A DNA stretch of 64,000 nt, from the IMG/VR virus record IMGVR_UViG_3300030061_003198. One strand, written 5' to 3'. Below are positions 815 to 54,001 of the stretch, one piece after another. The position numbers and the translations under genes are program-made. The notes beneath the pieces are model-generated. The model saw nothing but the letters and a program-made list of their open reading frames with translations, ran no database searches and was not told the DNA's origin. Source of the DNA: a virus. Position 1 is the first letter of the stretch, and every line of letters starts with the position of its first letter.

Positions 815-1632
815 TATGAATTTGCCTTTAATCTTACATTTGCAATAGTCCAAGCTGGTTGGTACTGAACACTACTGTCAGCTTCGAAACTAAATATAAT
901 TCTTCGAGTGGTACCTACAGTCCATAAGCTACCATTAGTTATTTCACTTCCATCTATAGTTATACTTTCTCCATAAAATGCATTTCTTGCTGCACTAGTG
1001 CCGGCTCTAGAGTTAGAGTCTTCACTATTAAATTTTCCATTATTAGTATTAGCTGCTACGTTAGTGCCTACTAGTCTTTCATAATTTGAGCCATTAGTGA
1101 GGCCATATCCAGTACCAGCAACTGGTGTGAATGTGGTGTCAGCAAATCCTACGTAACCAAAATCAAAACTACTTACTCCACTACCATTCTCTCCATAACA
1201 CATCCATTCGAATGTGAGAGTCAAGCTTGTAGTTCCAGCTGGTATATCAAAATCAAAATACATATGACATTCTGTGTTTGCTACATATGTGTTATTACTA
1301 GAGTCACTTGAAACATATGCAGCATGAGTTGAGCTTGATGGTATTGTTTTTACAGCTCCATCGTTGCCTTTTGTGTTTTGTCCACATATCCATCTTTTAC
1401 TTGTTGATTCTTCTAAGTTTGTCCATTTTGACAAATCACCAGTTGCAAATGTATCTTCAAATAAAAATTCAGTTGGAAAGATCGGCTGTAAATCTCCTCC
1501 TAATCTTTCTAATCTAATTTTTCTATTTGAAAGTATGCCTATAGAGCTAGTTGTAGCAAGAGAACTAGTTACATTAGATCTAGCATCATAGCCTATTAAT
1601 CCGCCATTGCCTTTTCTTGCACTGATTCCCAT
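814..1632 (-). CDS. Virion fibre-associated/adhesin protein (beta-sandwich C-terminus)
   Basis: ORF track start 1653; ATG at 1632 (MGISARKGNGG) preferred because of TAATG coupling to the upstream stop; FEDTF..GDLSKW and W.IANVRL resemble lectin/MAM-type sandwiches. Confidence 0.6.
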   Translation of the reverse strand: MGISARKGNGGLIGYDARSNVTSSLATTSSIGILSNRKIRLERLGGDLQPIFPTEFLFEDTFATGDLSKWTNLEESTSKRWICGQNTKGNDGAVKTIPSSSTHAAYVSSDSSNNTYVANTECHMYFDFDIPAGTTSLTLTFEWMCYGENGSGVSSFDFGYVGFADTTFTPVAGTGYGLTNGSNYERLVGTNVAANTNNGKFNSEDSNSRAGTSAARNAFYGESITIDGSEITNGSLWTVGTTRRIIFSFEADSSVQYQPAWTIANVRLKANS

Positions 1633-4238
1633 TACGTCATTCCTTGATACCATACAAATATTTTAGTTTGATCTGGGATTGATAGATGTTTACCAGACCC
1701 TGAAAAGAATGCAGCTGATGCGGTGCTTGATACTGTTAATGATCCTGTTATTTGTAAATTGTTAGTAGTTGCAAAATATGATCCAGTTTCGTGGAATATA
1801 CTTCCTCCGCCAGCGCTTGGTAAATTTGTTAAACCAGATCCATTCCCTATAAAGCTTCCAGAAAATAAAGATGCAGAAACTGTACCTAATATAGTAACTC
1901 CTTGTGTTCCGGAGCCTGATATATATAAACTACCCGATAATATTGTATTTCCATTTACGTCTAAAGTGGATCTAGGATTTGTTTTATTAAGTCCAAAATT
2001 ACCTCCACCATTCCAATATGATTGACTTGTAGGTCCAACTATAAATTTAAGATTGGGAGAGTCATTATTTGAATTTTCTAGATAAACCCCAAATGTTCTA
2101 CGTTCTGTTACTGTTGTTGTGCCTTCATTTTGATCATTAGCTACTAAAGTAATAGAACTTATAGCAGTAGCAGTAGGTTGAGCATTTATTCCTATTGCAA
2201 TACTACCTCTACCTGTACTAGTACCACTTCCTGCACCAGCTCCTATTGTAATTGAATCTAATCCAGCTCTTGCAACTTCGCCAATACCAATACCTTTCAT
2301 ATCAGCAAAAGCTCCATCTCCTATAGCAACTGCGCCTTCTGCATTTGCAGTTGTTCCTAAAGTAGCTGAATTACCTATTAAAACAACATTTGCTCCTACT
2401 CCTGATGTTTGTCTAATTCCTCCAAATACATTTAATGAACCTGTAATTGTTCCGGAGCCTGATATATATAAACTACCTGATATTACTTGATTTCCATTAA
2501 ATGTATTTGATCCTGTAATTGCATATGATGAAGTTTGTGAATTGGTTACAAATGAAGACGTCTGAGAATTGGTTACAAATGATGAAGTTGCTGAACTAGT
2601 AACAAATCCTAATGCACTAATTTGGGTTGATCCAGATACTGTACCAGCTGGTATAGTTATTATATTTAGAGCATGAGATGCAGTAACTGCAAAACTTGAT
2701 GTCAATACCGACATCGAAGATGTCTGTGAATTGGTTACAAATGATGAAGTTTGTGAATTGGTTACAAACGATGATGTCTGCGAGTTTACTACAAACGAAG
2801 CGGTTGCACTATTTGCTACTACATTTGCTGTTTGTGCATATGATGATAGATCTTGATCACCTGTATTGGTTCCTGATAAATTTGAACCTAATACTGTGCC
2901 AGTTGCTAATACGTTTCCTGCTACTATATTTAATGATCCGCTAATATTTACACTACCAGATACTGTTAAGAATCCATTTTGTATTACAGACCCTGTGATA
3001 ATAGATAGTGTTCCTCCCAATCCCATATTTGCATGGTTAGTGCAATAGTAATATAGAGTAGGAGTAGAATTAGTTACAGATATCTGCGTATATGCTCCTG
3101 CAGATCCAGGACTTCCTGCAATAGTAACTCCGGTTGAATAATTAGATGATCCACCGGTGTCGGTTGAAAATCTTAGCGGATGGCTTCCTCCACTTCCGTT
3201 TGATGCGTCTGATTGGTCAAATTTATATGAATTTCCTGCAGTTAGACTTATAGACGATGTTATAGTTCCATCTAGATAATACTTATTACCTCCTCCTGGA
3301 TCGACTACTGTTACTGCAATTGATGATGTTGATCCATTACCAGGTACTACGCTACCTGACAAATTTGTTATAGTTAAGTTGTCAAAACTAGCTGTAGATG
3401 AATTTGTTAAAAACGATGATGTTTGTGAGTTTACAACAAATGAAGATGTCTGTGAGTTCACAACAAATGAGCTTGTTTGTGAATTGGTTACAAAAGATGC
3501 TGTTGCTGAGCTACTAATAAATCCAAAGGCTGTTATTTGTGCCGAACTAGATATTGTTCCTGATGGTGTACTTCCTCCTCCAATTAAAAATGAAGCTGTA
3601 GCTGCGAAACTCGCAGATACTACTGTTCCTAATAAAAGAGATGCTGTTGTTGCAAAGCTTGAACTTAAAACGGTCATCGATGAAGTTTGTGAATTAGTTA
3701 CAAATGAAGCAGTTGCCGAACTTGTTACGAATCCAAATGCAGTTATTTGAGCAGAGCTAGATACAGTTCCTGCAGCTGCAGATCCGCCTCCTACTGAAAA
3801 ATCAGCTCCAGCAATTGTAATAGTAGTTAAAGCAGTACCTGGTGATCCACCTGGATTTGCAACTACTGTTGTTCCGCCACCGCCACTAATACCAGTTAAT
3901 GCAGATCCGTCTCCTTGGAATGAACCAGAAAAAGATCCGGAGAATTGACTTGCGTCGAATATAACAGTATCGCCTAATGAAGAATCTCCAATCGTTAATA
4001 TATTGCCATTAGCAGATATTTTACCACCACCCATCAATTTTAATGTTGATTCTGCAGCCGGCAGTCCAATTTCAACATCACCTGCAGTACTTTGATCTCC
4101 TAATATAATATCATTATTAGATCCAGATTTTGGTAATATAACTAAATCTCCAGATCCAGAAACAAATATTTCACCCATTAGGTGTCCAATTGTATTAAAA
4201 AATTGTATTTTTTCGTTATTTAGTATCTGGTATTTCAT
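1632..4238 (-). CDS. Tail/neck fibre protein with Ser/Thr repeats, cupredoxin-like domain and YadA-head-like repeats
   Basis: 868 aa; SFVTNSQTS repeats, SGSFQGDGS, HPLRF...YYCTNHANMG, AVAIG/SITIG/SIAIG repeats, GNFGL.K.NPRSTLDVNG. Confidence 0.75.
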   Translation of the reverse strand: MKYQILNNEKIQFFNTIGHLMGEIFVSGSGDLVILPKSGSNNDIILGDQSTAGDVEIGLPAAESTLKLMGGGKISANGNILTIGDSSLGDTVIFDASQFSGSFSGSFQGDGSALTGISGGGGTTVVANPGGSPGTALTTITIAGADFSVGGGSAAAGTVSSSAQITAFGFVTSSATASFVTNSQTSSMTVLSSSFATTASLLLGTVVSASFAATASFLIGGGSTPSGTISSSAQITAFGFISSSATASFVTNSQTSSFVVNSQTSSFVVNSQTSSFLTNSSTASFDNLTITNLSGSVVPGNGSTSSIAVTVVDPGGGNKYYLDGTITSSISLTAGNSYKFDQSDASNGSGGSHPLRFSTDTGGSSNYSTGVTIAGSPGSAGAYTQISVTNSTPTLYYYCTNHANMGLGGTLSIITGSVIQNGFLTVSGSVNISGSLNIVAGNVLATGTVLGSNLSGTNTGDQDLSSYAQTANVVANSATASFVVNSQTSSFVTNSQTSSFVTNSQTSSMSVLTSSFAVTASHALNIITIPAGTVSGSTQISALGFVTSSATSSFVTNSQTSSFVTNSQTSSYAITGSNTFNGNQVISGSLYISGSGTITGSLNVFGGIRQTSGVGANVVLIGNSATLGTTANAEGAVAIGDGAFADMKGIGIGEVARAGLDSITIGAGAGSGTSTGRGSIAIGINAQPTATAISSITLVANDQNEGTTTVTERRTFGVYLENSNNDSPNLKFIVGPTSQSYWNGGGNFGLNKTNPRSTLDVNGNTILSGSLYISGSGTQGVTILGTVSASLFSGSFIGNGSGLTNLPSAGGGSIFHETGSYFATTNNLQITGSLTVSSTASAAFFSGSGKHLSIPDQTKIFVWYQGMT
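2531..3760 (-). repeat. Degenerate 27-bp (9-aa SFVTNSQTS) tandem repeats in several clusters within the fibre gene
   Basis: Plus-strand unit gatgaagtttgtgaattggttacaaat and variants near 2530-2590, 2715-2800, 3415-3500, 3680-3710. Confidence 0.85.
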
Positions 4239-4243: not shown

Positions 4244-4252
4244 AATAAATAT
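4244..4252 (-). promoter_or_regulatory. Putative late promoter motif ATATTTATT
   Basis: Recurrent motif, 5 nt upstream of fibre ATG. Confidence 0.55.
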
Positions 4253-7200
4253 CATAATTTAATTTTATTGAACTTATAAATTTGTGTTAAATCAGATGTT
4301 TGTTGCAATACTCTATTTCTTCCTGCGGAGTTTGTAAATGGAGTGTTCTGTGATGTTATATAATGTTTTTGATTATCAAATAATTTTAAGAAATCCATAT
4401 TGCTGTATTGTATATGTATTTTTGATACATCTGGAGTTACAATTTTAAAATTTAAATCTTTAAATGAACAAATCAATCCTATGGGCATATAATATTGTCC
4501 TTTAACATAAAATGAAAATGTATATGTACCTTTATTTAATGTATATTGCTTATTGGTAGCTATTGTAGTTAAGTCTAATTGATTTAATCGAATAACATCT
4601 AAAATAGTATTAGTTGTTTGATTTTCAAATATCCATTCATGTTGGGATTGAGCATAAGCATTATATTGTGGTTGGGCGTAACTAGAATATGCTGAGTCGC
4701 CGAACATAGCTTGTAATGTTGTTTTATATATAAAATTAAAATCTATACGTACTGGGGTATTATCCTCTGATACTTCAAAATGACAAGCTATATGTCTAGC
4801 TGTTTCTGTTGTTCCGCCAGAATCTGGATTTGGTAATGTATCTCCTCTCCAATATAATTCATATAATCCATCGGTTTTAAAGGTATCAGTTTTAACAATT
4901 TGAACTTGAGCTGTATTACTAGCTTTAATTAATACATAATCTCTATTTCCAAATCTCCTAGAGTCTGAGCCTTTGAAGAAGATTGGATTTGTGCCTTGAC
5001 CTGGATATGTTCCTAATGTCGATTGGCCTCGGCCGGTATAGGTATCTACGTACCCCAATTGAGAGCTGCGCATTCTAGGATTTGCTGCAGATGGATAATA
5101 AAATACATTATTTGTGTTATTTTTAAAATTATTTCTTGTATTCATTTCATAATCTATTAAAGGGCCATTAACGGCGCTTTCAAGATAATTATCTCTCCAG
5201 TTCCAATTGTATTCTTCAGGAAAAATATTATTACTAGTATGTATAACATTTGATAAATCTGATATTGCATTATATCCTCTATCAACACGAATTCCGCCTG
5301 TTAAAGCATGATTACGTTGATAACCTCCAATCATAAATGTATTTTGTAAATATACTTTTCCAGTAGCTTGCGAGGTACCTAATCCATATTGATCTATAGG
5401 TACATTAACACCGCCGGTTATACGATGTTGTGCTACGCAAAAATTAATTACATTTTTTTGTTTTCTTGGATACATAAATCCTAAATAAGTAGTGCTTCCA
5501 TATGTCATAAAAACATTGAATGCTAATAATTGGGATGGAGCAGATGGATTTGCTGTTGGGATAGCTTGTAATGTATTATGAGTTAAAATATTACGATACA
5601 ACCCAGGTTTCATATGAGAAACATAACTTTCTTGATTTAAGAACATTCCTATATCTTCATAAGTTCGTATACCTTCATATTCATTACCATTATAATTATA
5701 TATTGCTCCATTTTTAAATGTTACATTACATAATTGTTGAGTTACATTATCACTTGAATATGTATATATAAAGAATGGGGCTGCTCTATCTCCAATTAAT
5801 GTTACTTGTCCTCTGTTATATTTGTATGCCATTGTACCAACACCAATATGTTCATGTGTTATTGGTCTGTCTAATGTTACTATATTATTATTAATAGCTA
5901 TTATATCATAATAACGATTAACTCCTCCTAAAGCTTGCTCATCCGGAGTTGATTTATCATAATACCCGGTCATATTGTGTACGTTTGTATAATTTTGCCA
6001 AGTTGAGTTATCTGTAGCAGTTGCGATATGACCGGTGGAATTCATTTGTTTACTCCAAAAGAATATTTGATCTCCAATTGCAAAGTTTTTTACATTAGCT
6101 AATTCTACTTGACATAAAGAAGAAGTTGGGCCGCCATAGGCATCAACACAACTAGCAGATGGAGGAGCATTATCTAATGATCCAGAAAAATTATATGCTC
6201 CAAAGAAAGCGTGCCTATAATATAAAGCATTAGATGTTCCGCCACGTGACTTATATTTTACATAACGTTTATTTACGGATCCGGAAGGGAAAGTATAATA
6301 ACGTATTGCGCCTCTATATGTAGATCTTCTTGTATCATCTAAAAGTCCAACTACTGTTTGCCAAGCTGGAGTAGCTACGCCAATATCATCGCAAACTTGA
6401 AATGTAATATCATTCATTTGGTTACTAGTATCTCTTTCAAACCCATATGCATCTTTAGAAAATACCATTCCAATTGTATCAAATTCTACTTGGGTTCTAA
6501 AATCATATATAATATAAAAATTATCATTTGATTGACCATAACTCCAATAGCTAGGATTATTCGATCCACGTGGAACTAATGTTGCTCCTTTATTATATCT
6601 GTCAGATGAATATCGATATGCATTAACACTAGGTAAACTAGTGCCACCAGCGGTTGTACCAGTATAACATGTTGCATACATGTATGGTAAAATAGATGTG
6701 TCGCCTTTTTTATACTCATAGTCCCATAATAAATTTTTAAATCCTTTTGCGTCAACTACTTCTGTTGCAATAAATTTACTGCGTTTATTTGCATATTGAT
6801 TATATAACAATCCGCCTTCTTTTATTTTGTCACGATATGTAAATGAATCTTGTGTATCTAATATTAACATTTGCCATTTTGTTTTAATATTAACGCTATG
6901 AATCGATCCATATTGTCCTAGAGTTAGACCAAGCCTTCCCCTAGGCATTTCAGTCTCTTTTTTGTCTATTAAAATTTCTCTACCTTTTGGATCTCCTAAA
7001 TATGTTGTTTTAAGATTATCATCAAAAACTATTCTTAAATGAGCACTACCGCCTGTTTTACTACCTCTTTGTGATTCTAATGATGCAGTTACTGAATGCC
7101 AGCTAGCAGTTAAATTATTTACAACAGGCCGCATATCAAAATTAGTGCTAGTTACATCGTTGTAATTTATAGCATTTTGTCGATATTGATATCTAAATGG

Positions 7201-10200
7201 CGTTGCTGGATTATTATATTGAGAATAAAGATTTATTGAGCCTGATATATTAGAAGCAGAACAAGGAAAGTTTCCAAAGTTAAATCCTTGGGAGTAAACT
7301 GTTCCTGCAGATTGCACTACTCGGCCACCATAGTTTCCTGATATGGTTGTTCGATCCATATATGGCCAAGGAGTTTGATATGCATAATCTAGATCTCCAT
7401 AAGTACTTCCATAACTATCTTTTCGACTAGGTGGTGAGAATGGAATACATCCATTTACTACGCCAAAAAATGTTGATGTGTACATTGCTTGACTCGATGT
7501 AGGATCATATAATCCATTTCTTAGCAAACTTCCAGAAACTATTATTTCTCCCCTTTGAAAATTTGAGGTATCTTTTAATTGGTATTCTCCTGATATGTAA
7601 TTAGTGGTATATATAGAATGGTATCTATATGTCTGATTGACGCTTCCATTTGTTCTATCCATTCTATATGATGGATGTACATTATACCAAGTATATGCTT
7701 GAGTCGGATCCAATTGTAATGATCGGTATCCTTGATTCGATCCTGATTTTTGTGCATAATTTAAAGCATTATATGCATTACTATTAAAAGATGCAGAGTC
7801 AGGAAAATGTCTACTTCCTCTATATGATCCTGTTATTAATAGTCTATCTTTCATGAACAGTTCAGTGAAATATGTACTAGGTTGTGTTATACCATATGTG
7901 CTAGAATTAGTTGGCCAGATGGAAGATGCAGAATAATCATTTTCTAATAGATCAAATACTTGATTTAATGCTGGTTGATTTGATGATGTAAATTCATAAA
8001 AATGTGATTGCGATAAATATGTAGTAGCATGTAATACATTATATGCACTACCACTTATAACTAATTTATCACCTGTTTGGAAATTTAAATGTGTACTATC
8101 TACTAATACAACACGCTTAGATCCAATATAATTAGAATCTGGAGCTTCTTTAAATGTTTCTGTAAAATCATTATGTGTATACAATCCCATATTTGATTGT
8201 ATCTCTCCCTCTTTTCCATACATTTTACCTACTGTAATATAATCGCCGCTCATTGACATTATTTGTACAATTTCATCTGTTTCAAATGCATGATCATATG
8301 ATCTTTCTATATAATATTTACCGTCAGTACTTGTATATCCGCCAACTGCATCTGTCCTTGGACGATTGTAAACGCTGAATTGTGGACTGGCGTGTCTATT
8401 TGCAAATTGATCTGAACTAGCTGACCACCATGTATTTGGATCATTTTCATCAATATAGTCTAAACCAAAATCAGTATTTTTAGCATGTATTTTAATTGAT
8501 CCAGTCGATTCTAAAGATATATAATCACCTACTCCAAAAGTATTTTGTGCATCGGTAATTCGTATTGTTGTGTCGCCGGCGCTAGCTGCTTCTGTTAGTA
8601 TAGACGATGAATAATTTGCTGATCCTGAAATTATTACTGATGTATAATTTTGTCTTTGATATATTCCTGATTCATAATTAGGAACTAATGATGTTCTACT
8701 AGAACTTAAATGTATTGTTGCTTGATCTGTTACTAATAATGTTGATCGAACTGCATAATCGTACATATCAATACTAGGATAATATGTACTATCTTCTAGA
8801 TCATGTATTGTAATTTTTGATTGATCTTTTACATGAAAATGGGTAAAGCCGCCCATTTCAATACGTCCTACCTCCCAATGCTGACTACCTGTTAATTCCC
8901 ATTGTTGCATTAAAGTATCACTATAAAAAGTATTGCTAGTTCTCCACATTGCACCGTTGACTTTATAAGTATTCGATCCAGTTAATGGAGCATACAATGG
9001 AACATGTATCACAGATTCTGTAGTATATAAAGAGTAATTTGTATCAATATTTATTCCACGCATATAGCTTGTTTGTGGATCTTGAAGATTAATTTTTACT
9101 ATTTGATGATTACCAGGTCCAAGGCCTTGGTAAAACATATTAGCAGTATATGCATATATATGGCCTGAGCCAGTTATGAATTTTGAGTAATAACCACTAT
9201 TTGAAGAAGTATATGGGGTTCCGTATTTAATACTAGCAGTTCCTTCTGGAAACCATATAGGATATTCCATATTTCTTAATGTGTCTCCGCTTCCACTAAA
9301 CCCACCTGTTACAAAGCCATATGCATGTGCCGCGCGGAGGTAACCACTAGTGTCAGTTCTAGTCATATTATAACTAGCAGCATTAACATATCCAAATGAC
9401 GGTCCACTAGTATGATTCGAGTTTCGATATTCGCTACCAGTAGTTGTAAATACAGTGAAACAGTTTAAATTATTTAGGTATGCGTTATTGTTATTTGTTA
9501 GTCCCCGAGCGTTATGAGGACCACGGATTTCCCATCTTCCTCCATTTGAAACATGTAATGCAGATCCAGTAAATAAATCAACCATTCTATCAGTCATTGG
9601 ATAGCCTTCATTAGCTGCTAGCCAATCTTCTTTGCTAACACCAAATGCTCTACTTCTTGTGTAATATGTTTCTCCGACTAATCCTAATGGTTCTGCAATT
9701 GTTACCCCATCAATAGTAAATGATGTATCATTGACACCATCATAATACAAATAATATGTTGAAGCATACATGAAGTATCTATTAGGCAATCGGTCAGCGT
9801 TATTTACATTGAATGTGTCACGATATAACCAGTTCCATTGATTTTCTGAGGTTGCATTGTAACTATGTGTTGTACCATATGTACTATTACCATTTACATT
9901 ATTGTATGCTCCTCTAAAATATGATTCAGTTCCACTTGCACCATATGCATATGCACTTTGAGCATAGGTACCACCAGGTATATCATTAACAATTCCTGGG
10001 AATTGTCTTTGTATTATATTCCATTTACTAGAAGAATATGAATAATTAGGGTGATTAAAATGAATTGGTAGTATCAGTTCTCCGTCATATGCATTACTAT
10101 TGTTTTTGCTTGTGGCGCCTAAATAGATGTTATTTTCATAGGAGGTATAAACGGATGCCATTCGTTTAAATCTTGCTACATCTTCCTTACCAGGTACTAC

Positions 10201-24862: not shown

Positions 24863-24871
24863 TATAAATAT
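24863..24871 (-). promoter_or_regulatory. Putative late promoter motif ATATTTATA
   Basis: Between terminase and portal. Confidence 0.6.
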
Positions 24872-45559: not shown

Positions 45560-45578
45560 ATTTTTTATTACCTTTATT

Positions 45579-45587: not shown

Positions 45588-45618
45588 TACAATGTAATAT
45601 TTTTCTATCTTTTTAAGT

Positions 45619-48600
45619 TTATTTATTGCCTACTACAAAAGTACCACCACTTCCTCCGCCTTGTACAACAACTGTATTCGGATTTGCAGGAATAATTTCA
45701 ACAACTGGGCCTCCATCAACCGTATCAGCTGATGCTATATTAAAATCAGGACTAGTCATTTGACAACCATTATATTCTAAATTTGCAGTGCCTGCTGGGG
45801 TAAAATCTTGTATTTCTGCGTCACGATATATAAAAGTTGATACAGATCCAGACATATAATATAATTTCATTGATACTTTAGATACAGTAATTGTTGAATT
45901 ACCGAGACCTTGATAAAATTGAAATCCAAACGACATTCGATTCGTGCCAGTTAATGCTGAATATAATTCTGCAGAAGTCAATCCCCATGTATCATCAGGC
46001 CCTCCATATGTTTTAGTTGACTGCGAAGTAGTTGGCCATAAAACAACAAGCCCAGGAGTGTACACCCCCTTGTTTTCTCCAACATTTATATCACTTGAGT
46101 GATCACTATATAAACTAGCAGTATAAGGAACTGAATAACCCTGGGTCGTAGTTTTTGCTTCAACATCAACTTCTAAGCCTAACAGATTACCAGCATCACT
46201 AATACTAAGTAGCGAGCTCCATGACCATGAAGATGCATGCAAAACATCTGAATATTCGGTGGTCAGTACTTCACTAAACGTATCACCGCCAGAAGTTATA
46301 TTATTAGGATTAATCCAATCATGTTCTGTGCCAGGCTCATACGGATTAACTCTAGTAGACCCATTCCCGGGAAATTCTTTGAAACTAGATGTTGATGTAG
46401 ATGACGCAGGAGTTTCAGAATATAATAATTGATATATTTCTGATACTCTACTAGAACTAATATATGGAGTAACAGCTTCGCAATATCTAGAAGATGTTAC
46501 AGTGAGCCATGAGCTTCCTGATCTTATAATTTCCGGATAACAATATTGAGTTCCATCAAATTTTGTGTCTGAACTACTTGTTAGCATTGCTTGGTATTGA
46601 TCATCATCGTTACCAGAAGCAGAAATTATACGATTAATTTGACCATTATATACATCGTAACTAGAAGTCAATGAGTTTTTAGTAATTTGTATTGTATCAG
46701 AAAATGTATCTAATGTGTTAGATATTGTCGGTAAAACTGTACCTTTACTTCTTTCTAATATATTTGGTTGTATTAATAATCCTGTTATTTTATCAACTCG
46801 TGCAGGAAGTAATTGATCTAATTGTCTAAAAAATGATAAATCAAACATTGAAAATATTTTAATATATGCATTCATATCATTTTTGTCAATATATTTTTTC
46901 CAATAATCTTCTGCTACTCGTATTAAATCTGGATATGCATTTGAATCTTGATCTCCCGGATCACCAATAAAGTTATCTAAACTTGTAAATCCTAATTGTG
47001 CAATGACATCTTCATTAATCATTGTTTGTGGAGAATAATATACTCCTAATTTTTTACTATCTAATGGTGATTTATCAAATTGACTTCGTTCGGCTCTTGT
47101 TTTTAAATCTAATGTTCCAACTAAGTTATTTGATTCTAATCGAACTTTATTATCATCAAAAGTACCAGCTCCAATTGAGATACCATCATAATAATACATT
47201 TCTTCAATATCACTATACGGAGAATCATTAGTCCATGATCTAAACGAAGAACTTATACTAGATGAAACAGGTTGAACTCCTTGTATCGTTGGTATAGTAG
47301 TATGATTAATTTTTTGATTTAATGGTAATCTATATATTAATTCGTTATATGTATTTGTATTTCCGTCATATGCGCCTGGAGCTTTTGTATGATTTTCAAA
47401 AGGCATATTTTCTAATGGATATTCCCATAACCTAAATTCTTGTAATTCTCCTTCTAATCTTACGCCTGCAGTACTTGAACTTCCAAATGTTATAGATCCA
47501 GAATCTAATAATTGTTGTGGGTGATTATATGAAGAAGTTACCGTTGCAACAATTTTACCATATTTAGACTTTTTAGCAGTTAATTTTAATTCAGATCCAC
47601 TATTTTCTAATACTGTATTTACCCAATTACCATCAAAACACTCAATCTCTGCAGAAGCAGTGCCATTAACTCGAATTTTACCTAATGTTCCTCTAGAAAA
47701 TGCTACATCTACAAAAATATCTTCTGACCCTGTTGCATTAATAGTATATAAATTCATTACTCCAGACATTGTCGGATTCGTTAATACGTTATCTGTTCTA
47801 AATCTTAATTCAACAGCTTGAGGCCTTTTATAAGGCGGTAGATCAGCTCCCCACGTAGTTGTAACAGTTCCAGCTGGGTTTCTTATTAAATCTAATGCAT
47901 AATCAAAATTTAATTTTTCATATATAGGCGCCCGTTCGATTCGAGGGCCGCCATATTCTTTTATAGTTATTAAAGATTGAGGGACGCCATAACAAGCTAA
48001 TAATGATTGTATACTACGTTTAGTGCCTTTTGATTTTAACAAACCTGGTAAATTATTAACAATTCTTCTCCATATATGATATGTCATATCCTGGTTTGAT
48101 ACAGCCGGCTTTCCGATACTATTCGATCCAGTTAAAGGTATTCCAGCTTCACTTGTACCTAATGTATATTCCCATAAATTTTTACTTTGATTGCCATTTG
48201 ATAAATTCCAACCAAATTGTTTTGCAACTGAATATAATAATTCATTAGGCATACCCAGATCTGGATGTTCCTCTCTAGAATTTATTAATGTCATTGTTTT
48301 AATATATGTATGTAATATATCATAATGTTGACCTAACATATTCACGAAAGGCGCCAATTGAGTATTTGTTCGATCAAATCTTATAAATTCTGGAATTGAT
48401 TTTATTATTGCATTTTGATTTTCTCGATCATATTTCGAAGATGTAACAATTAAATTATCATACCATGTTTCAAATGCACTACTGCTAATTGAATATAATG
48501 TATATGGATATGTAGTATTAGTCTTAGGAGCAGGTGTTATATAACTACCAGTAAAAAAATCTACGTTAGGTTCAATTGATGGAATTTCATGAGAAAATAA

Positions 48601-49758
48601 TCCCGACGACGATTGATAATACATGAATTTTTCGAAATCGTCAAATCCTCCAATTAACTTACTTTTTTTAGAATTATAATCAGCTATATTAGTAGTAGCA
48701 TTACTTCCTGACAACAATGAAACTACAGATGATTGTGAAGTATATAATTCAACTAGTTCTAATTTATATTTAAAATTCTTTAAACGTTCTGTTGCTGAAC
48801 TATAAAATATAAAATTATTAAAATCTGTATAATCAATATTAGGTTTAACTCCATGTAAACTTCCAGAAAAATATGCATCAATTATTTCTTGTGAAGTTTG
48901 TACAGATGAACCTAATAAATCATTCCATGACTTTAAATTTGTTTCAGCTGAAGTATCACTTAATGGAGTATTGGCCTGCCAATTTGGTCCTTGTAAAGGA
49001 ATATAACCTATTTGCGAACTAGGTTCATATAAAACAACATTATCAATATATGGATATTTTAATTCTTCTACAACCCAACATTTGAATTGTTCTTCAATAA
49101 TATCATCAATTGGATCAGCTAATTTAACGTATAAATATTCGCCAATTACTACACTATTAACAAATTTAAAGCATTGATTTCTACTAAAATTTAGCAAATA
49201 AGTTTTAGAAAATCCTGTCAAAGAAGTTTGTTGTACATTATTTATATAGTCATTGATTTGACTTAAAAAGTCTGAATTTTTTTTATCAATAGCTTTTAAA
49301 CGTATTTCTGTACGGTCTGGAGATATTTCGTCAACTTTAAGATATTGTTGATTATAGCTCCCAATACAATTTTTAAAAAAGTTAATAACAAAACGAAATT
49401 GACCTGATGTTATTTGTAATTTTTTAAATTCATCATATAATGGAATGTTAAGCCAATTCGATGGAAAATTAATTGATGTATTTAAATCTGTATCAAAAAA
49501 TGGAGAATTTGGCGGAGACGAATTTGCATCTGGTACATCATATTCACCTGATATCCATGTCTGATCAGAATATACATGTAATTCCATTTGATTGTTATAA
49601 TCATATAATTGAGCTCCTGGTGAAATTGATGGATTAAACTCAATACGATTATTAAGTGGATATGATAATAATGATCTAGATTTTTCTTGTATTCGATTAC
49701 CTGATATAGATTTATCAGCATTTAATATTTCGTCAAGATTTTTATATTGTTTTAACAT
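45619..49758 (-). CDS. Large baseplate wedge protein (P2 gpI/T4 gp7-like region plus LamG)
   Basis: LLYSVAKQFGW...LLKSKGTKRSIQSLLACYG; GELQEFRLW. Confidence 0.7.
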   Translation of the reverse strand: MLKQYKNLDEILNADKSISGNRIQEKSRSLLSYPLNNRIEFNPSISPGAQLYDYNNQMELHVYSDQTWISGEYDVPDANSSPPNSPFFDTDLNTSINFPSNWLNIPLYDEFKKLQITSGQFRFVINFFKNCIGSYNQQYLKVDEISPDRTEIRLKAIDKKNSDFLSQINDYINNVQQTSLTGFSKTYLLNFSRNQCFKFVNSVVIGEYLYVKLADPIDDIIEEQFKCWVVEELKYPYIDNVVLYEPSSQIGYIPLQGPNWQANTPLSDTSAETNLKSWNDLLGSSVQTSQEIIDAYFSGSLHGVKPNIDYTDFNNFIFYSSATERLKNFKYKLELVELYTSQSSVVSLLSGSNATTNIADYNSKKSKLIGGFDDFEKFMYYQSSSGLFSHEIPSIEPNVDFFTGSYITPAPKTNTTYPYTLYSISSSAFETWYDNLIVTSSKYDRENQNAIIKSIPEFIRFDRTNTQLAPFVNMLGQHYDILHTYIKTMTLINSREEHPDLGMPNELLYSVAKQFGWNLSNGNQSKNLWEYTLGTSEAGIPLTGSNSIGKPAVSNQDMTYHIWRRIVNNLPGLLKSKGTKRSIQSLLACYGVPQSLITIKEYGGPRIERAPIYEKLNFDYALDLIRNPAGTVTTTWGADLPPYKRPQAVELRFRTDNVLTNPTMSGVMNLYTINATGSEDIFVDVAFSRGTLGKIRVNGTASAEIECFDGNWVNTVLENSGSELKLTAKKSKYGKIVATVTSSYNHPQQLLDSGSITFGSSSTAGVRLEGELQEFRLWEYPLENMPFENHTKAPGAYDGNTNTYNELIYRLPLNQKINHTTIPTIQGVQPVSSSISSSFRSWTNDSPYSDIEEMYYYDGISIGAGTFDDNKVRLESNNLVGTLDLKTRAERSQFDKSPLDSKKLGVYYSPQTMINEDVIAQLGFTSLDNFIGDPGDQDSNAYPDLIRVAEDYWKKYIDKNDMNAYIKIFSMFDLSFFRQLDQLLPARVDKITGLLIQPNILERSKGTVLPTISNTLDTFSDTIQITKNSLTSSYDVYNGQINRIISASGNDDDQYQAMLTSSSDTKFDGTQYCYPEIIRSGSSWLTVTSSRYCEAVTPYISSSRVSEIYQLLYSETPASSTSTSSFKEFPGNGSTRVNPYEPGTEHDWINPNNITSGGDTFSEVLTTEYSDVLHASSWSWSSLLSISDAGNLLGLEVDVEAKTTTQGYSVPYTASLYSDHSSDINVGENKGVYTPGLVVLWPTTSQSTKTYGGPDDTWGLTSAELYSALTGTNRMSFGFQFYQGLGNSTITVSKVSMKLYYMSGSVSTFIYRDAEIQDFTPAGTANLEYNGCQMTSPDFNIASADTVDGGPVVEIIPANPNTVVVQGGGSGGTFVVGNK

Positions 49759-49761
49759 TTA

Positions 49762-50940: not shown

Positions 50941-50947
50941 ATTTTCC

Positions 50948-52111
50948 TTATCTAATTATTTTAAAATAAAACTCATCATCAATAAAATCTTCCATATAAC
51001 CATTTACAATTTTAAATTCTAATCGGTAATAACGTTCTGGCATTAAGCCTGACATATCCATCGTAATAAAATTACTCGTCTCATCACAACTAACTTTTGT
51101 ATAATTACTATCATATGGAATAACAACTTCATCGGTAGCTGCATCTTTAAGCGAATATAATGTTGTATTAGGTAAATATTTAACAGTTGTCATTGGAAAT
51201 TTATTAGTAGGAGACTTTTGTGGATATTTATCTCTTGAATAAATACGTATTTTTGACACAGCTGTATCTTTATATTCTTTTTTTAATTGAGTATATAATG
51301 TATATGAATCTGGATTATATTCAACTAATGACCCAGTATCAAATGTAGATTTATCAAAATACATTGTTAATCTAGGAACATATATAGTATGAGTTTCTCT
51401 ACTAAAAAATCTAACATATCCTGTTATTGAAGTATCAGATTCATTTTGATCAGAAAATTTAAGTAAAAAGCCAAAGTTAGGAATAATTTTACCCCCACTA
51501 CCGCTTATCCACGTTTTAACAGCACCTGTTACATCGATATTTAAATCTGTGGGTCTATATGAAAATGATTCATTTAAATTTAATCCAGGCTGATTTGAAA
51601 ATGATTGTGAGAAAGCAGTAGATCCAAAAACACCAGATCCTGATTGGTATAACCAACTACCCCCTTTTCCTGAGCCTGAAATATATAAACTACTGCCGCT
51701 TATATTTATGTCTTGACTTCCTGAAGTCCAAAAATAAGATCCTGATTTTGGGGTATTCCATGTTACACCATCAATAATTGGAACATTAACTGATTCAAAT
51801 CCTGTACCATTTGTCCACGCATCACCCACAAGATTTGCATCAATTGTATAATTTGCTGATAAATTTTTTGCATGGGTAGTATATAATTGTAACATAAATT
51901 TACAATTTTCAATATTGATATCATATTTTGTCAAAGCAGAATTAACATCTGCCATATCAAACTTTAAAACTGATCTTGATTTTAAGTAATTGCTGCCAGA
52001 TATTGAAGATAATCTTTTTCCAACTTCTAATATTTCATCTAAACCTGTATTATTCTTAGGTAAAGCTTCATATAAAGTTGCGTCTGATTCTGGATATATT
52101 ATTTTAAACAT
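50948..52111 (-). CDS. Structural protein with DNRLRE-like domain
   Basis: DATLYE..NTG...LEVG...RSVLKFD...NFGFLLK...FFSRE...PRL. Confidence 0.65.
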   Translation of the reverse strand: MFKIIYPESDATLYEALPKNNTGLDEILEVGKRLSSISGSNYLKSRSVLKFDMADVNSALTKYDINIENCKFMLQLYTTHAKNLSANYTIDANLVGDAWTNGTGFESVNVPIIDGVTWNTPKSGSYFWTSGSQDINISGSSLYISGSGKGGSWLYQSGSGVFGSTAFSQSFSNQPGLNLNESFSYRPTDLNIDVTGAVKTWISGSGGKIIPNFGFLLKFSDQNESDTSITGYVRFFSRETHTIYVPRLTMYFDKSTFDTGSLVEYNPDSYTLYTQLKKEYKDTAVSKIRIYSRDKYPQKSPTNKFPMTTVKYLPNTTLYSLKDAATDEVVIPYDSNYTKVSCDETSNFITMDMSGLMPERYYRLEFKIVNGYMEDFIDDEFYFKIIR

Positions 52112-52120
52112 TATTTACCT

Positions 52121-54001
52121 TTAATAATTCGTAGTTTTTCCTTTAATATCTTTATCTGGAAATTTAATTTCAAATATAGATGGATCTAGTGATGGATATA
52201 TAATACCTTTTCTTGTAGCTGTTTCTAAATCATATGGATTCTCTGCATAATTTTGTGTTCTGTCAAATAAATTATTAAATTTTATTCCAACAACTGATTG
52301 TACTCCTGTTATATTTCCTAATAAATTCAATACGTCTGCTTTAACAATAGGCTGATTAATTTGCCATTTATCAATATTAAAATATGATCTTACGGCATCA
52401 ATACATGATAGTAAAACTTCATTACTATTATAATTACTTCTTACTGTTATTTCAAAATCTATACCTATATTAATTATAAACGCATCTTTAATATTTACTG
52501 CGTCTGTTAATATTCTATAATAATCTAAATAATTTTTTAAATTTGTTTTAATTGCATCATTAACGGGTGTTAATTGTTTAACATTATTAAATCCTAAAAC
52601 ATATAAATTCATTGCTAATGGATTAGGCACGCGCGTTTCAATTAAATCTTGTTGCATAATTTGATCATCAGGGACAATATATGCTTTTGATACACTTCCA
52701 AATTTAGCTGGCATTGAATAACTACGTATGATATAATCATCTTTAGTTACTAATCGATTCTGTGTTGCAAAATTAGCTAATGCGTTATTTTTTATATCTT
52801 GTAATGTATCTTTAGATTTGGCTCCTGCAGCTGGTTCTGGATTATTTACAGCTAAACTATTTTTTGTAAAATTTGATAAGTCTCTACTAATATTTGAATT
52901 AGGATCATCATTATATTGTACCGAAGCTATTTTTGTTAATTCATTAGCAGGTACATTTTCTGCAACTCCTTTTCCGGTTGTGTACACAACTGTTAACGTT
53001 GTATTAGCCGGTGCTTGACCATATGCTCTAGTATATAAAAAATTAGAAGGATCTATATTAACATCAATTGGTTTTCTAAATCCAGCTAAGCCATTTCCAA
53101 CGTTTGTAGGATTAGGTATAACTTCTTCATCATTGCTATCCGAAACGCCAGCGCCAAATTGTAATTCGAATCGATTATCACTTCGTATTCTTGAAATAAA
53201 TCTTTTTGACGTTTTCCTTAATTTTAATAAGTATGGAGAAGAATCACGGTATGATGCCAATTCAGGATCATTTTCTAACAGATTTGGAACTTCATCAAAC
53301 ATTGTATCTTGAGCTAAATATGGAACTTCACTCCATGTGTCGCCGTCACTATCTGTAACAGATATAATTTCCATTGTATTAGATGGAGATAAAACTACTT
53401 TATCATATGCTACTGGATTCGTAAAAGTAAAAGTTGATGTTTCAATTTTACCTGATCTTGCTGGAACTTGTTTTTTTAATAAATAATAAACTGGTAATTT
53501 TGTAGCATCATCACTTTCAAAAATTGTAACTTCGGTTGGGTCTAATGACGAAGAAAATGTAAAATCAACTAAGTCTGTAGTCCTAAATTCTATATCTCCT
53601 GTCTTTTGTTTAACACGCATACCAGATTTAACTGTTAATGCATAATCCCAATTGGGCCGTACCGCACTACCTGTTCCGGTTGCTGGTATTAATTGAAATA
53701 CATCTAAATTAACATGACCTGGAATAGTATTTTTTGCATTATATCCTAAAGCTTTAGTTAAATCATATATGTTTTTACGTTCTGACGCTTGTTCTAATAA
53801 TGATTCTTTTAAATTATTATCTGAATAATAACTTAATACATCGCCTACATATGATGCCATTTCTAGAAATAACATTCCTGGAGATGACTCATTGAAATCT
53901 GTATATTGGGTTGGAAAATATTGTTTAGTAAAATTAATTAAATTTTTACGAAATTGATTAAAATCTTTTCCTAAATATGATATGTCTTTTTTTACGTCCA
54001 T
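52121..54001 (-). CDS. gp6: Baseplate wedge subunit (T4 gp6 / baseplate J-like)
   Basis: DFNQFRKNL, YTDFN..SPG, YVGDVLSYY, LQFG.G, QNRLVTKDDY. Confidence 0.88.
   Translation of the reverse strand: MDVKKDISYLGKDFNQFRKNLINFTKQYFPTQYTDFNESSPGMLFLEMASYVGDVLSYYSDNNLKESLLEQASERKNIYDLTKALGYNAKNTIPGHVNLDVFQLIPATGTGSAVRPNWDYALTVKSGMRVKQKTGDIEFRTTDLVDFTFSSSLDPTEVTIFESDDATKLPVYYLLKKQVPARSGKIETSTFTFTNPVAYDKVVLSPSNTMEIISVTDSDGDTWSEVPYLAQDTMFDEVPNLLENDPELASYRDSSPYLLKLRKTSKRFISRIRSDNRFELQFGAGVSDSNDEEVIPNPTNVGNGLAGFRKPIDVNIDPSNFLYTRAYGQAPANTTLTVVYTTGKGVAENVPANELTKIASVQYNDDPNSNISRDLSNFTKNSLAVNNPEPAAGAKSKDTLQDIKNNALANFATQNRLVTKDDYIIRSYSMPAKFGSVSKAYIVPDDQIMQQDLIETRVPNPLAMNLYVLGFNNVKQLTPVNDAIKTNLKNYLDYYRILTDAVNIKDAFIINIGIDFEITVRSNYNSNEVLLSCIDAVRSYFNIDKWQINQPIVKADVLNLLGNITGVQSVVGIKFNNLFDRTQNYAENPYDLETATRKGIIYPSLDPSIFEIKFPDKDIKGKTTNY

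What the first reader, a model, noticed from the sequence alone, without database searches (positions are those of the whole stretch)
1632..54001. [S/T]-G-S (and [S/T]-A-S) motif saturates outer virion proteins but not enzymes: candidate virion modification sequon
Seen: SGS/TGS recurs in structurally unrelated virion proteins. By eye there are 8 in the 387-aa protein (50948-52111), 9 in the 431-aa protein (43579-44874), many in each fibre and the 2008-aa protein, and some in neck proteins and the variable middle of the capsid protein (SSGSF, ITGSG, TSAS, PTAS). I found none in portal, terminase, Mre11-Rad50 or the 672-aa enzyme. A shared fold cannot explain a motif spread over capsid, neck, baseplate and fibres. 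Inference: a recognition sequon for a phage-encoded virion-wide modification such as O-glycosylation. It differs from the Bacteroidota D-[ST]-[AILVMT] glycosylation motif. No glycosyltransferase is visible in this window.
Basis: partly seen in the sequence, partly recalled or inferred. Interest (0 to 1): 0.8.

Follow-up and report, generated by a model that had tools for sequence, protein, structure and literature searches.

The report
Ser/Thr-Gly-Ser tag on phage surface
The outward-facing particle proteins of this uncultured marine T4-like ("Far-T4") phage carry the ordered tripeptide Ser/Thr-Gly-Ser four to six times more often than chance. Its relatives encode a conserved set of sugar-transferases that appear to be switched on together with the particle genes, so the tripeptide may be where a phage-made sugar coat attaches, but no chemistry shows this.

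Summary
[ST]GS occurs 105 times in the window's 50 ORFs against about 27 expected. SGS and TGS are the two most over-represented tripeptides. The motif is directional (TGS 36, SGT 7), is encoded by mixed codons, and survives 10-residue local shuffles. It sits in two fibres and seven peripheral virion-module proteins. The other 41 ORFs are at expectation, so "none in enzymes" is not significant in itself.

The excess is specific to the Far-T4 clade. It is present in immuto, Mel-JY01, RM378 and four IMG/VR genomes, and absent from T4, Syn9, P-SSM2 and LR756511.

All the motif-rich relatives carry a syntenic GT-B/GT-B/GT2 triad (divergent in RM378). In four of them the operon follows the same ATATTTATA element that precedes the window's structural genes. 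No lipid-carrier or export genes were found. Published data show that immuto DNA is not glycosylated.

Across homologues the flanking hydroxyl residues are more conserved than the glycine. Asp and Asn do not substitute at the first position. The motif is depleted (0.35x) in non-virion ORFs.

My best reading is a Ser O-glycosylation acceptor (about 0.5). The main rival is a purely structural turn or fibre idiom (about 0.3).

The window itself holds no glycosyltransferase, and its remaining genome could not be reached. This scan has reported the same motif on other DNA before.

The parts
1632..4238 (-). 868-aa tail fibre. [ST]GS 19 (expected 6.4) and [ST]AS 10 (expected 3.8), mostly in tandem arrays with period 6 or 12, such as ISGSLYISGSGTITGSL.
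   Evidence: (phrog_30742 tail fiber)
4252..10278 (-). 2008-aa large virion-module protein with a weak F5/8 type C (discoidin) hit. [ST]GS 15 (expected 2.8); 15 of its 23 [ST][GA]S motifs are isolated.
10563..13394 (-). 943-aa fibre with a T4 baseplate-wedge/tail-fibre connector module. [ST]GS 21 (expected 3.8), [ST]AS 11 (expected 2.1).
   Evidence: (phrog_677)
13394..14641 (-). 415-aa protein with a weak gp15-like (tail sheath stabiliser) hit. [ST]GS 3 (expected 0.25).
16808..18496 (-). Major capsid protein (Gp23 family). Its five [ST][GA]S motifs all lie at residues 166-262, the variable insertion region. Across 79 Far-T4 MCPs this region has 288 motifs vs 63.9 expected, and the rest of the protein 43 vs 63.5.
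30699..33659 (-). 986-aa protein of unknown fold, preceded by ATATTTATA. [ST]GS 6 (expected 1.7). Homologues in G003 and G004 (2122 and 2722 aa) carry 28 and 29 motifs.
41572..43512 (-). 646-aa baseplate-region protein with a ConA-like/Laminin-G lectin domain. It has 11 isolated [ST][GA]S motifs. In the confident part of the AF2 model, SGS359 and SGS396 form beta-hairpin loops, and SAS328 and SGS411 end strands.
43579..44874 (-). 431-aa baseplate-region protein of a very large uncharacterised family (over 6900 homologues). [ST]GS 9 (expected 0.86). The 120 homologues analysed average 8.8 motifs vs 0.75 expected.
45619..49758 (-). 1379-aa baseplate-region protein. [ST]GS 9 (expected 2.0), all isolated. 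Orthologues in G001, G003, G004 and Mel-JY01 are also enriched.
50948..52111 (-). 387-aa baseplate-region protein next to the gp6-like wedge protein. [ST]GS 8 (expected 0.64). 107 representatives of the family (50%-identity clusters): [ST]GS 404 vs 54.5, SGT 27 vs 23.5.
52121..54460 (-). Conserved gp6-like (626 aa) and gp25-like (151 aa) baseplate wedge proteins. They are not enriched (1 and 0 motifs) and mark the baseplate module.
24863..24871 (-). Example of the ATATTTATA promoter-like element, 21 nt upstream of the portal gene. Other copies lie at 16409, 23021, 28638, 33676, 43543, 54945 and 57433, before other virion-module genes (neck, 283-aa, 263-aa, 986-aa, 646-aa, 155-aa and 144-aa ORFs). 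The same element precedes the GT operon in relatives.

Best explanation
The ordered motif phi-[S/T]-[G, less often A/S]-S-phi is a selected surface feature of the outer virion proteins of Far-T4 phages: the capsid insertion domain, neck, peripheral baseplate proteins and fibres. The most likely function is an acceptor site for serine O-glycosylation.

Proposed mechanism. Soluble phage glycosyltransferases are made together with the structural proteins in the cytoplasm. They comprise a conserved GT-B/GT-B/GT2 core triad plus lineage-variable transferases, sugar-nucleotide enzymes and methyltransferases. They would recognise the hydroxyl pair displayed on tight beta-hairpin or beta-arc turns and build a glycan directly on the protein before or during assembly, giving a sugar-coated particle.

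Shown: the enrichment, its directionality and its restriction to this clade; the turn or strand-end location of the few sites that could be mapped; the conserved GT triad in relatives and its structural-gene-type upstream element; the absence of lipid-carrier and export genes.

Inferred: that the GTs act on virion proteins, that the motif is their recognition site, which residue is modified, and that this window's phage also carries the triad.
For: (1) Chemical specificity beyond turn propensity. SGS is 4.5x and TGS 3x, but SGT is 0.6x, [ND]GS about 1.3x and SG[ND] about 1.5x in the window. In 107 diverse homologues of the 387-aa protein, [ST]GS is 7.4x, SGT 1.15x, [ND]GS 0.85x and SG[ND] 0.91x.

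(2) At recurrent alignment columns the flanking S/T (0.68-0.92) and S (0.52-0.87; Thr 0.02-0.17) are conserved as much as or more than the Gly (0.20-0.81). The Gly alternates with S, A, Q and E. A glycine-dependent turn would not tolerate that.

(3) Turnover. Motifs in that family occupy 81 alignment columns and most members keep 2-5.

(4) Surface restriction. In the MCP the motif is 4.5x inside the variable insertion region and 0.68x outside it. In the confident lectin domain, SGS359 and SGS396 are hairpin loops.

(5) Avoidance. In the low-S/T/G half of ORFs (mostly non-virion) of seven triad-type genomes, [ST]GS is 11 vs 31.5 (0.35x) while the mirror [ST]GT is 30 vs 33.3. Control genomes give 50 vs 49.4.

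(6) Clade pattern. The excess is seen in the window, G001, G003, G004, G005, immuto, Mel-JY01 and RM378. It is absent from T4, Syn9, P-SSM2, LR756511 and LR756508.

(7) GT triad. It is syntenic at 37-57% identity in G001, G003-G005, immuto and Mel-JY01 and divergent in RM378. Among 50,697 phage records GT-B1 hits only these relatives.

(8) A matched contrast. Mel-JY01 (full triad) has 34 motifs vs 4.5 expected in orthologous baseplate-region proteins. LR756508, equally distant by MCP and with only a 33%-identity GT-B1, has 6 vs 2.2.

(9) ATATTTATA lies about 20-30 nt upstream of GT-B1 in G001, G003, G004 and G005, as it does before the portal, neck and baseplate-region genes of the window.

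(10) Five relatives have no PF02397, PF00953, PF04932 or PF01075, so there is no lipid-linked or periplasmic route.

(11) immuto DNA contains dA, dC, dT and fdPreQ1 only (bioRxiv 10.1101/2023.04.13.536721), which argues against bulk DNA glycosylation.

(12) The best solved relative of both GT-B proteins is chlorovirus NY-2A B736L (3OY2).
Against: There is no chemical evidence of any modification. No GT lies in this window and the rest of its contig (about 157 kb) could not be read.

The motif-GT association is essentially one clade, that is one evolutionary event, so it may be plain co-inheritance. LR756508 keeps a GT-B1 homologue without the excess. immuto also shows an SGT excess (44 vs 23), so directionality is not universal. 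ATATTTATA is not found upstream of GT-B1 in immuto, Mel-JY01 or RM378.

About half the motifs lie in period-6/12 fibre repeats, where a structural role is the obvious one. The depletion statistic counts orthologues from related genomes as independent, and it is one of several motifs tested. The AF2 models were mediocre overall (mean pLDDT 53 and 60) and solvent exposure was not computed. Cellulophaga phage phi38:1, which lacks the triad, shows a mild directional excess (TGS 12 vs SGT 4).
Confidence: 0.5

Rival explanations
1. A purely structural idiom. phi-S-G-S-phi would be the preferred tight turn or beta-arc of this clade's beta-rich peripheral proteins. It would have been inherited and spread by duplication and module exchange of fibre-like segments (ISGSLYISGSG, period 6), with the serines acting as small H-bonding caps in trimeric beta-helices and hairpins. 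No modification would be involved, and the GT cluster would do something else.
For: Flanking residues are hydrophobic (position -1 is I/F/L/V/A in 70% of cases) and motif spacing peaks at 6 and 12. The confident model places SGS in two-to-four-residue hairpin loops or at strand ends. Several sites are invariant over hundreds of homologues, as structural residues are. LR756508 has a GT-B1 homologue but no excess, and P-SSM2 has many GTs but no excess. The 387-aa protein contains a short fibre-like run of motifs.
Against: General turn formers are not enriched (SGT, SGN, SGD, NGS and DGS are about 0.6-1.5x). The Gly is the least conserved position at most of the recurrent columns and is replaced by S, A, Q or E. 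T4, Syn9 and P-SSM2 fibres and baseplates, which are equally beta-rich, show no directional excess. Isolated motifs in non-homologous globular proteins are also enriched. A structural idiom does not predict depletion in non-virion ORFs.
Confidence: 0.3
2. The motif is the target or functional site of something other than glycosylation. Examples would be another Ser modification (phosphorylation, acylation, phospho-sugar or other head-group addition), or a hydroxyl-rich surface patch that binds host polysaccharide or water and ions.
For: The selected feature appears to be the pair of hydroxyls ([ST]-x-S) on exposed turns of outer proteins. Several carriers have lectin-like or discoidin-like domains. 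Nothing identifies the chemistry.
Against: No kinase or acyltransferase was found that tracks the motif. The only clade-specific enzyme set found is the GT triad with sugar-nucleotide enzymes. A binding-patch role does not explain a strict ordered tripeptide, nor its depletion in non-virion ORFs.
Confidence: 0.1
3. The apparent link to glycosyltransferases is coincidental. The GT island would modify the host envelope or another substrate during infection (as proposed for cyanophage LPS-type clusters), or a minor DNA base, and the motif would be unrelated.
For: Published interpretations of marine-phage GT clusters favour host-surface or DNA modification (PMC12801897; 10.1101/2023.12.21.572611). 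P-SSM2 has GTs without the motif.
Against: The core triad is conserved at 37-57% identity between phages of Flavobacterium and of Microcystis, which is hard to reconcile with a host-specific envelope target. There are no lipid-carrier, flippase-type or ligase genes. immuto DNA shows no glycosylated nucleoside. The operon follows the structural-gene-type element in four relatives.
Confidence: 0.1

Closest known systems
Mycobacteriophage virion O-glycosylation by phage-encoded glycosyltransferases (Freeman et al. 2023, Cell Host Microbe; known here only through citations in PMC12619734 and PMC12801897)
   Same: Phage-encoded soluble GTs would decorate virion structural proteins in the cytoplasm and give a glycan-shielded particle.
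   Different: In mycobacteriophages the glycans sit at the C-termini of the capsid and tail-tube subunits (as summarised in PMC12619734). Here the candidate sites are a short ordered tripeptide scattered over many outer proteins, in a T4-like myovirus clade of aquatic bacteria. Modification is not shown here.
Bacterial autotransporter heptosyltransferases Aah/TibC acting on AIDA-I/TibA (PMC4358343)
   Same: A cytoplasmic O-glycosyltransferase hyper-modifies serines, not threonines, that are flanked by small residues in beta-helix repeats. The TibA sites are S313 and S322 in ...NSGGAVITNTSAAVSGTN.... The Ser-not-Thr preference and the small-residue turn context look alike.
   Different: No GT9/BAHT-type enzyme is present in five relatives. 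The phage enzymes are GT4-like GT-B proteins with an EX7E motif. The acceptor motif differs ([ST]-G-S against S-G-G and S-A-A).
Chlorovirus virus-encoded glycosylation of the capsid; putative GT B736L of NY-2A (PDB 3OY2)
   Same: The virus would carry its own cytoplasmic glycosylation machinery for virion proteins. B736L is the best solved sequence relative of both GT-B1 (E 1e-13) and GT-B2. One fibre has a sub-threshold hit to the Chlorovirus glycoprotein repeat PF06598 (23.2 bits, cut-off 27).
   Different: The host is eukaryotic. From general knowledge, PBCV-1 Vp54 glycans are N-linked at atypical sites. The similarity covers only the nucleotide-sugar-binding half of the GT.
Bacteroidota general O-glycosylation (D-[ST]-[AILVMT])
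   Same: It is a three-residue O-glycosylation sequon in the likely host phylum.
   Different: That system acts in the periplasm, whereas virions assemble in the cytoplasm. The motif is not enriched in the window's virion proteins (0.77-0.89x).
GtfA/GtfB glycosylation of serine-rich repeat adhesins
   Same: Two adjacent GT-B proteins, and serine acceptors separated by small residues.
   Different: No match to the NCBIfam GtfA/GtfB models. Both phage proteins keep the catalytic EX7E residues. There are no long S-x repeat tracts.

Membership tests
Far-T4 group of T4-like myoviruses (Roux et al. 2015; RM378, immuto) | A Gp23-type major capsid protein closest to RM378/immuto, together with T4-like portal, terminase, prohead protease and gp6/gp25 baseplate wedge proteins. 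| tested here: met
   PF07068 Gp23, E 1e-77. Best cultured MCP hits are immuto 57%, Mel-JY01 53% and RM378 39%. Portal, TerL, protease and wedge PHROGs match. PMC7198788 defines the group.
Phage-encoded virion glycosylation system | Glycosyltransferase genes in the same genome. | tested here: inconclusive
   No GT was found among the window ORFs scanned. The rest of the contig was unreachable. The triad is present in G001, G003, G004, G005, immuto and Mel-JY01, and in divergent form in RM378.
Phage-encoded virion glycosylation system | Glycan chemically demonstrated on virion proteins. | not testable with these tools
   No proteomic or glycoproteomic data for any Far-T4 phage were found in the library.
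Phage-encoded virion glycosylation system | A cytoplasmic, carrier-independent route: no initiating phosphoglycosyltransferase and no ligase/oligosaccharyltransferase. | tested here: met
   PF02397, PF00953 and PF04932 are absent from five relatives, with positive controls ringing.
Phage-encoded virion glycosylation system | GT genes co-regulated with the structural genes. | tested here: inconclusive
   ATATTTATA lies about 20-30 nt upstream of GT-B1 in G001, G003, G004 and G005 and upstream of structural genes in the window, G001 and immuto. It is not upstream of GT-B1 in immuto, Mel-JY01 or RM378. Promoter activity and timing are not shown.
Glycosylation sequon (a recognition motif, as opposed to a structural motif) | Enrichment beyond composition with positional and chemical specificity, location on exposed sites, and avoidance elsewhere. 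| tested here: met
   specificity; loops, outer domain; 0.35x in non-virion ORFs. These are necessary features, not sufficient ones.
BAHT (Aah/TibC) system | A GT9-like heptosyltransferase. | tested here: not met
   PF01075 is absent from five relatives.
GtfA/GtfB SRRP system | GtfA/GtfB equivalogs, of which one is a non-catalytic partner. | tested here: not met
   No TIGR GtfA/GtfB hit. EX7E is invariant in both GT-B1 and GT-B2.
Bacteroidota D-[ST]-[AILVMT] O-glycosylation | Enrichment of the D-[ST]-[AILVMT] sequon in target proteins. | tested here: not met
   0.77-0.89x in the window's fibres and peripheral virion proteins.

The most novel reading that the evidence does not exclude
Far-T4 phages, one of the most widespread aquatic myovirus groups, would sugar-coat the whole exterior of their particles (capsid insertion domain, neck, sheath, baseplate periphery and fibres). 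A late-expressed, carrier-independent glycosyltransferase set would add the sugars to serines within an ordered [S/T]-x-S turn motif. The same motif would be counter-selected in the phage's own enzymes. That would be the first short O-glycosylation sequon defined for a bacteriophage virion.
Probability: 0.45. Interest if true: 0.85.

Novelty: new variant of a known kind. Interest (0 to 1): 0.66.

Why it matters
Virion glycosylation by phage-encoded enzymes has so far been shown in mycobacteriophages, at protein C-termini. If this reading is true, it would extend the phenomenon to an abundant, mostly uncultured clade of aquatic T4-like phages. It would also supply a predictive sequence tag for the modified sites.

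That tag would let surface exposure and glycan load be read from metagenomic sequence alone. It would suggest a role for the large, variable 'glycan islands' that marine-phage papers currently assign to host-surface or DNA modification. It bears on particle stability, receptor recognition, and escape from adsorption traps or grazers.

The hypothesis can be tested directly, because immuto, RM378 and Mel-JY01 are in culture.

Tried and rejected
Composition or low-complexity artefact: rejected by whole-protein shuffles, by 10-40-residue local shuffles and by the mirror motifs.

DNA-level cause (a repeated oligonucleotide or a site bias): rejected, because codons are mixed in background proportions.

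Shared fold or recent duplication: only two short shared modules were found among the motif-rich proteins.

A general property of T4-like fibres and baseplates: rejected by T4, Syn9, P-SSM2 and LR756511.

'Any GT cluster predicts the motif': rejected by P-SSM2.

Replacement of deamidation-prone N-G/D-G turns: rejected, because NG- and DG-containing tripeptides are not depleted.

Host Bacteroidota sequon: not enriched.

DNA glycosylation as the role of the GT island: disfavoured for immuto by published nucleoside analysis.

Things that led nowhere. No G000 genome is held. The AF2 model of the 431-aa protein was poor (pLDDT 53) and its profile has no PDB relative. The IMG/VR search with GT-B1 returned only in-clade loci, so no independent lineage with the GT pair could be tested. 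No papers on Mel-JY01 or on Far-T4 glycosyltransferases were found.
Full report
WHAT THE WINDOW IS

All 50 ORFs of at least 100 aa lie on the minus strand of DNA with about 30% G+C. Family searches identify the following:
- a Gp23-type major capsid protein at 16808-18496 (PF07068, E 1e-77);
- portal at 23038-24843, large terminase at 24878-26455 and prohead protease at 20834-21457;
- gp6-like and gp25-like baseplate wedge proteins at 52121-54460;
- two tail fibres at 1632-4238 and 10563-13394;

The closest cultured relatives by MCP are Flavobacterium phage immuto (57%), Microcystis phage Mel-JY01 (53%) and Rhodothermus phage RM378 (39%). This is the 'Far-T4' group described in PMC7198788. IMG/VR holds at least 599 related MCP loci, and the 431-aa protein has more than 6900 homologues, so the clade is very abundant. 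The window matches short Tara Oceans contigs exactly.

THE OBSERVATION

Against per-protein composition the figures are as follows.

| tripeptide | observed | expected |
|---|---|---|
| SGS | 69 | 15.5 |
| TGS | 36 | 12.0 |
| TAS | 27 | 8.7 |
| SGT | 7 | 12 |
| GSS | 10 | 15 |
| SSG | 10 | 15 |

SGS, TGS, ISG and TAS are the four most over-represented tripeptides of the whole set. xGS is enriched only for x = S or T, and SGx only for x = S.

Shuffling inside 10-, 20- or 40-residue blocks leaves the excess intact: fibres 40 vs about 9.5, seven non-fibre proteins 58 vs about 11, and the other 41 ORFs 7 vs 8-9. The seven non-fibre proteins were picked after seeing their counts, but the excess is far larger than selection could give. 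Codons are used in background proportions, so the signal is at the protein level.

Position -1 is I, F, L, V or A in 70% of sites, and position +1 is mostly L, F, A, V, Y, N or G. Motif spacing peaks at 6 and 12 residues in the fibres. Even so, motifs more than 12 residues from any other are still about twice as frequent as expected (80 vs 41 +/- 6).

By class:

| class | [ST]GS ratio |
|---|---|
| fibres | 3.9x |
| peripheral large virion-module proteins | 6.1x |
| conserved core virion proteins | 1.8x (not significant) |
| enzymes | 0 observed vs 0.9 expected |
| all other ORFs | 0.7x |

The absence from enzymes is therefore uninformative on its own. The signal is the excess in peripheral proteins. 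These proteins are not detectably homologous to one another, apart from a 77-aa C-terminal module shared by the 646-aa and 431-aa proteins and about 94 aa shared by the two fibres.

IS IT GENERAL OR LINEAGE-SPECIFIC?

I assembled whole genomes and applied the same ORF caller and statistics to each. Values are observed/expected.

| genome | SGS | TGS | SGT |
|---|---|---|---|
| window | 69/16 | 36/12 | 7/12 |
| G001 | 52/16 | 52/17 | 17/17 |
| G003 | 52/26 | 51/23 | 30/23 |
| G004 | 74/31 | 56/26 | 20/26 |
| G005 | 45/14 | 50/14 | 11/14 |
| immuto | 64/23 | 53/23 | 44/23 |
| Mel-JY01 | 63/22 | 42/15 | 23/15 |
| RM378 | 28/10 | 23/8 | 7/8 |
| T4 | 14/15 | 5/12 | 14/12 |
| Syn9 | 29/25 | 28/24 | 31/24 |
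| P-SSM2 | 64/43 | 48/42 | 65/42 |
| LR756511 | 48/33 | 42/30 | 38/30 |
| LR756508 | 68/47 | 38/29 | 49/29 |

Cellulophaga phage phi38:1 shows a mild excess (SGS 12/10, TGS 12/7, SGT 4/7). The directional excess is therefore a trait of the Far-T4 clade and not of T4-like fibres in general. In T4 no ORF passes the threshold that picks out 3-10 ORFs in each Far-T4 genome, and in those genomes the enriched ORFs include orthologues of the window's 431-, 387-, 646-, 1379- and 986-aa proteins.

HOW THE MOTIF EVOLVES

In 120 homologues of the 431-aa protein (57-99% identity) there are 8.8 motifs per protein against 0.75 expected, at largely conserved columns. Three sites persist down to immuto and Mel-JY01 at 38-41% identity.

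In 107 representatives of the 387-aa family (from 50%-identity clusters) the ratios are: [ST]GS 404 vs 54.5 (7.4x), TGS 9.6x, SGT 1.15x, [ND]GS 0.85x and SG[ND] 0.91x. The motifs are spread over 81 alignment columns, and most proteins keep 2-5.

At the six recurrent columns, position 1 is S/T in 68-92% of sequences and position 3 is S in 52-87% (T in only 2-17%). The central residue is G in only 20-81%, with S, A, Q or E in its place. The selected feature therefore looks like an ordered hydroxyl pair, [S/T]-x-S, with Gly merely preferred. That is not what a glycine-dependent turn predicts. Asp and Asn, the usual turn-capping residues, do not substitute at position 1.

WHERE THE SITES SIT

The AF2 model of the 431-aa protein was poor (pLDDT 53). 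Several of its low-confidence segments begin at or beside a motif, and one motif ends a confident strand.

The 646-aa protein has a confident ConA-like lectin domain (pLDDT 74-94). Foldseek matches it to lectin-type beta-sandwich domains. This is a generic fold match and nothing more. In that domain SGS359 forms a four-residue hairpin loop and S396-G-S a two-residue hairpin loop. SAS328 and SGS411 end strands, and TGS240 is a short turn.

In the MCP all five motifs lie in residues 166-262. Across 79 Far-T4 MCPs this variable region has 288 [ST][GA]S vs 63.9 expected from its own composition. The conserved remainder has 43 vs 63.5, and the mirror S[GA]T has 25 vs 29. Mean column identity is 0.51 inside the region and 0.83 outside. 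From established knowledge of T4 gp23/gp24, the insertion domain faces outward; I did not test that here. Solvent exposure was not computed for any model.

THE GLYCOSYLTRANSFERASES

No GT was found in the window. The window's own contig, 156,715 bp, could not be read.

immuto carries an 11-kb island of GTs, aminotransferases, an epimerase, an acetyltransferase and a methyltransferase. Four of the five large IMG/VR relatives have several GT1- and GT2-family genes; the exception is only 67% complete.

A syntenic core is conserved at 37-57% identity in G001, G003, G004, G005, immuto and Mel-JY01. It consists of GT-B1 (about 480 aa), GT-B2 (about 440 aa) and a soluble GT2 (about 208 aa), and it is recognisable in RM378. 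It is absent from T4, Syn9, P-SSM2, phi38:1 and LR756511. Among 50,697 phage records GT-B1 hits only immuto, Mel-JY01, LR756508 and RM378.

Both GT-B proteins keep an invariant EX7E motif, and their best solved relative is the chlorovirus NY-2A putative GT B736L. G001 adds a PseB-like dehydratase, a sugar O-methyltransferase and GT25, GT4 and GT2 genes.

Five relatives lack initiating phosphoglycosyltransferases (PF02397, PF00953), Wzy_C/PglL-type ligases (PF04932) and GT9 heptosyltransferases. This fits stepwise cytoplasmic glycosylation of a soluble acceptor.

immuto DNA consists of dA, dC, dT and formyl-dPreQ1 (10.1101/2023.04.13.536721), so bulk DNA glycosylation is unlikely. Conservation of the core between phages of Flavobacterium and of Microcystis argues against a host-envelope target.

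CO-REGULATION

This lead came from earlier scan notes and I tested it here. ATATTTATA in coding orientation occurs 21 times in the window against 9.6 expected, and 18 of these are on the coding strand. ATATTTAT lies 0-45 nt upstream of 12 ORF starts, against 0.9 expected by random placement.

The genes that follow it are portal, neck, the 986-, 221- and 646-aa proteins and others. The Rad50-like gene, primase, TerL and MCP are not among them. In immuto the element precedes the sheath, tube, hub, TerL, tail-spike and a baseplate-region gene, and none of the replication genes (read against the annotation).

The same element lies about 20-30 nt upstream of GT-B1 in G001, G003, G004 and G005. It does not in immuto, Mel-JY01 or RM378. 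Promoter function and timing are inferred.

AVOIDANCE

I took the half of each genome's ORFs with the lowest S/T/G-based expectation. That classification does not depend on motif counts, and these ORFs are mostly enzymes. Across seven triad-type genomes [ST]GS is 11 vs 31.5 (0.35x, nominal P 2e-5). The mirror [ST]GT is 30 vs 33.3, and other permutations are 0.6-1.05x. Six control genomes give 50 vs 49.4. Orthologues are not independent and several motifs were tested, so this is suggestive only. It is nevertheless the pattern expected if a cytoplasmic enzyme reads the motif.

A MATCHED CONTRAST AND A COUNTER-EXAMPLE

Mel-JY01 and LR756508 are equally distant from the window by MCP (about 53% identity). 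Mel-JY01 has the full triad, and its orthologues of the peripheral baseplate-region proteins have 34 motifs vs 4.5 expected. LR756508 has only a 33%-identity GT-B1, intact but with no GT-B2 or GT2 partner, and has 6 vs 2.2. This supports a link to the full triad. It also shows that a GT-B1 homologue alone does not predict the motif.

VERDICT

The glycosylation reading is the best-supported explanation (about 0.5), but it rests on circumstantial evidence that is largely confined to one clade. A purely structural idiom remains a serious rival (about 0.3), particularly for the fibre repeats. The closest known systems are mycobacteriophage virion glycosylation, BAHT heptosylation of serines in beta-helix repeats (PMC4358343) and chlorovirus self-encoded glycosylation. 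This case is a member of none of them by enzyme family.

Earlier notes of this scan report the same motif together with the GT pair in many other windows. I treated them as leads only.

Noticed in passing
window minus strand: 16409-16417, 23021-23029, 24863-24871, 28638-28646, 33676-33684, 43543-43551, 54945-54953, 57433-57441: ATATTTATA lies 15-32 nt upstream of many structural-gene start codons (21 hits vs 9.6 expected, 18 on the coding strand). It is a candidate late promoter of Far-T4 phages. It is absent before the Rad50-like gene, primase, TerL and MCP.
   Followed up: partly
Only the 1036-aa neighbour is Rad50/SbcC-like.
   Followed up: yes
window 41572-43512 (-) and 43579-44874 (-): The 646-aa and 431-aa baseplate-region proteins share a conserved C-terminal module of about 77 aa (...ITTxGLYNDxxxLLAxxKLxxP...). 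In Mel-JY01 several neighbouring ORFs (352, 357, 718 and 954 aa) match the 431-aa protein (about 35-41% identity over about 340-360 aa), that is a paralogous array. The shared module is possibly a common baseplate-docking domain.
   Followed up: partly
window 41572-43512 (-), residues about 279-530: A ConA-like/Laminin-G lectin domain (PF13385, E 4e-14). Foldseek's best matches are generic lectin-type beta-sandwich domains. It is probably a carbohydrate-recognising baseplate protein.
   Followed up: partly
It is conserved in Mel-JY01 (39%) and LR756508 (38%).
   Followed up: no
window 10279-10562, 16391-16807, 19573-20004: Three unusually long gaps between the called ORFs of at least 100 aa (about 285-430 nt) in an otherwise tightly packed genome. 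No tRNA was found anywhere in the window. These gaps were not examined for small ORFs or RNAs.
   Followed up: no
L001/L002 (immuto 49172-59988); G001 44797-53956: Beyond the conserved triad, the gene content of the glycan island differs between lineages. immuto has WecE-type aminotransferases, an acetyltransferase and a mannosyltransferase. G001 has a PseB-like dehydratase, a sugar O-methyltransferase and GT25. The outer glycan therefore appears to be lineage-variable.
   Followed up: partly
LR756508 (W09) 305432-306748: This 484-kb uncultured phage has a Far-T4-type MCP (52% identity) and a lone GT-B1 homologue (33% identity), but no directional motif excess. It is a useful natural control.
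   Followed up: yes
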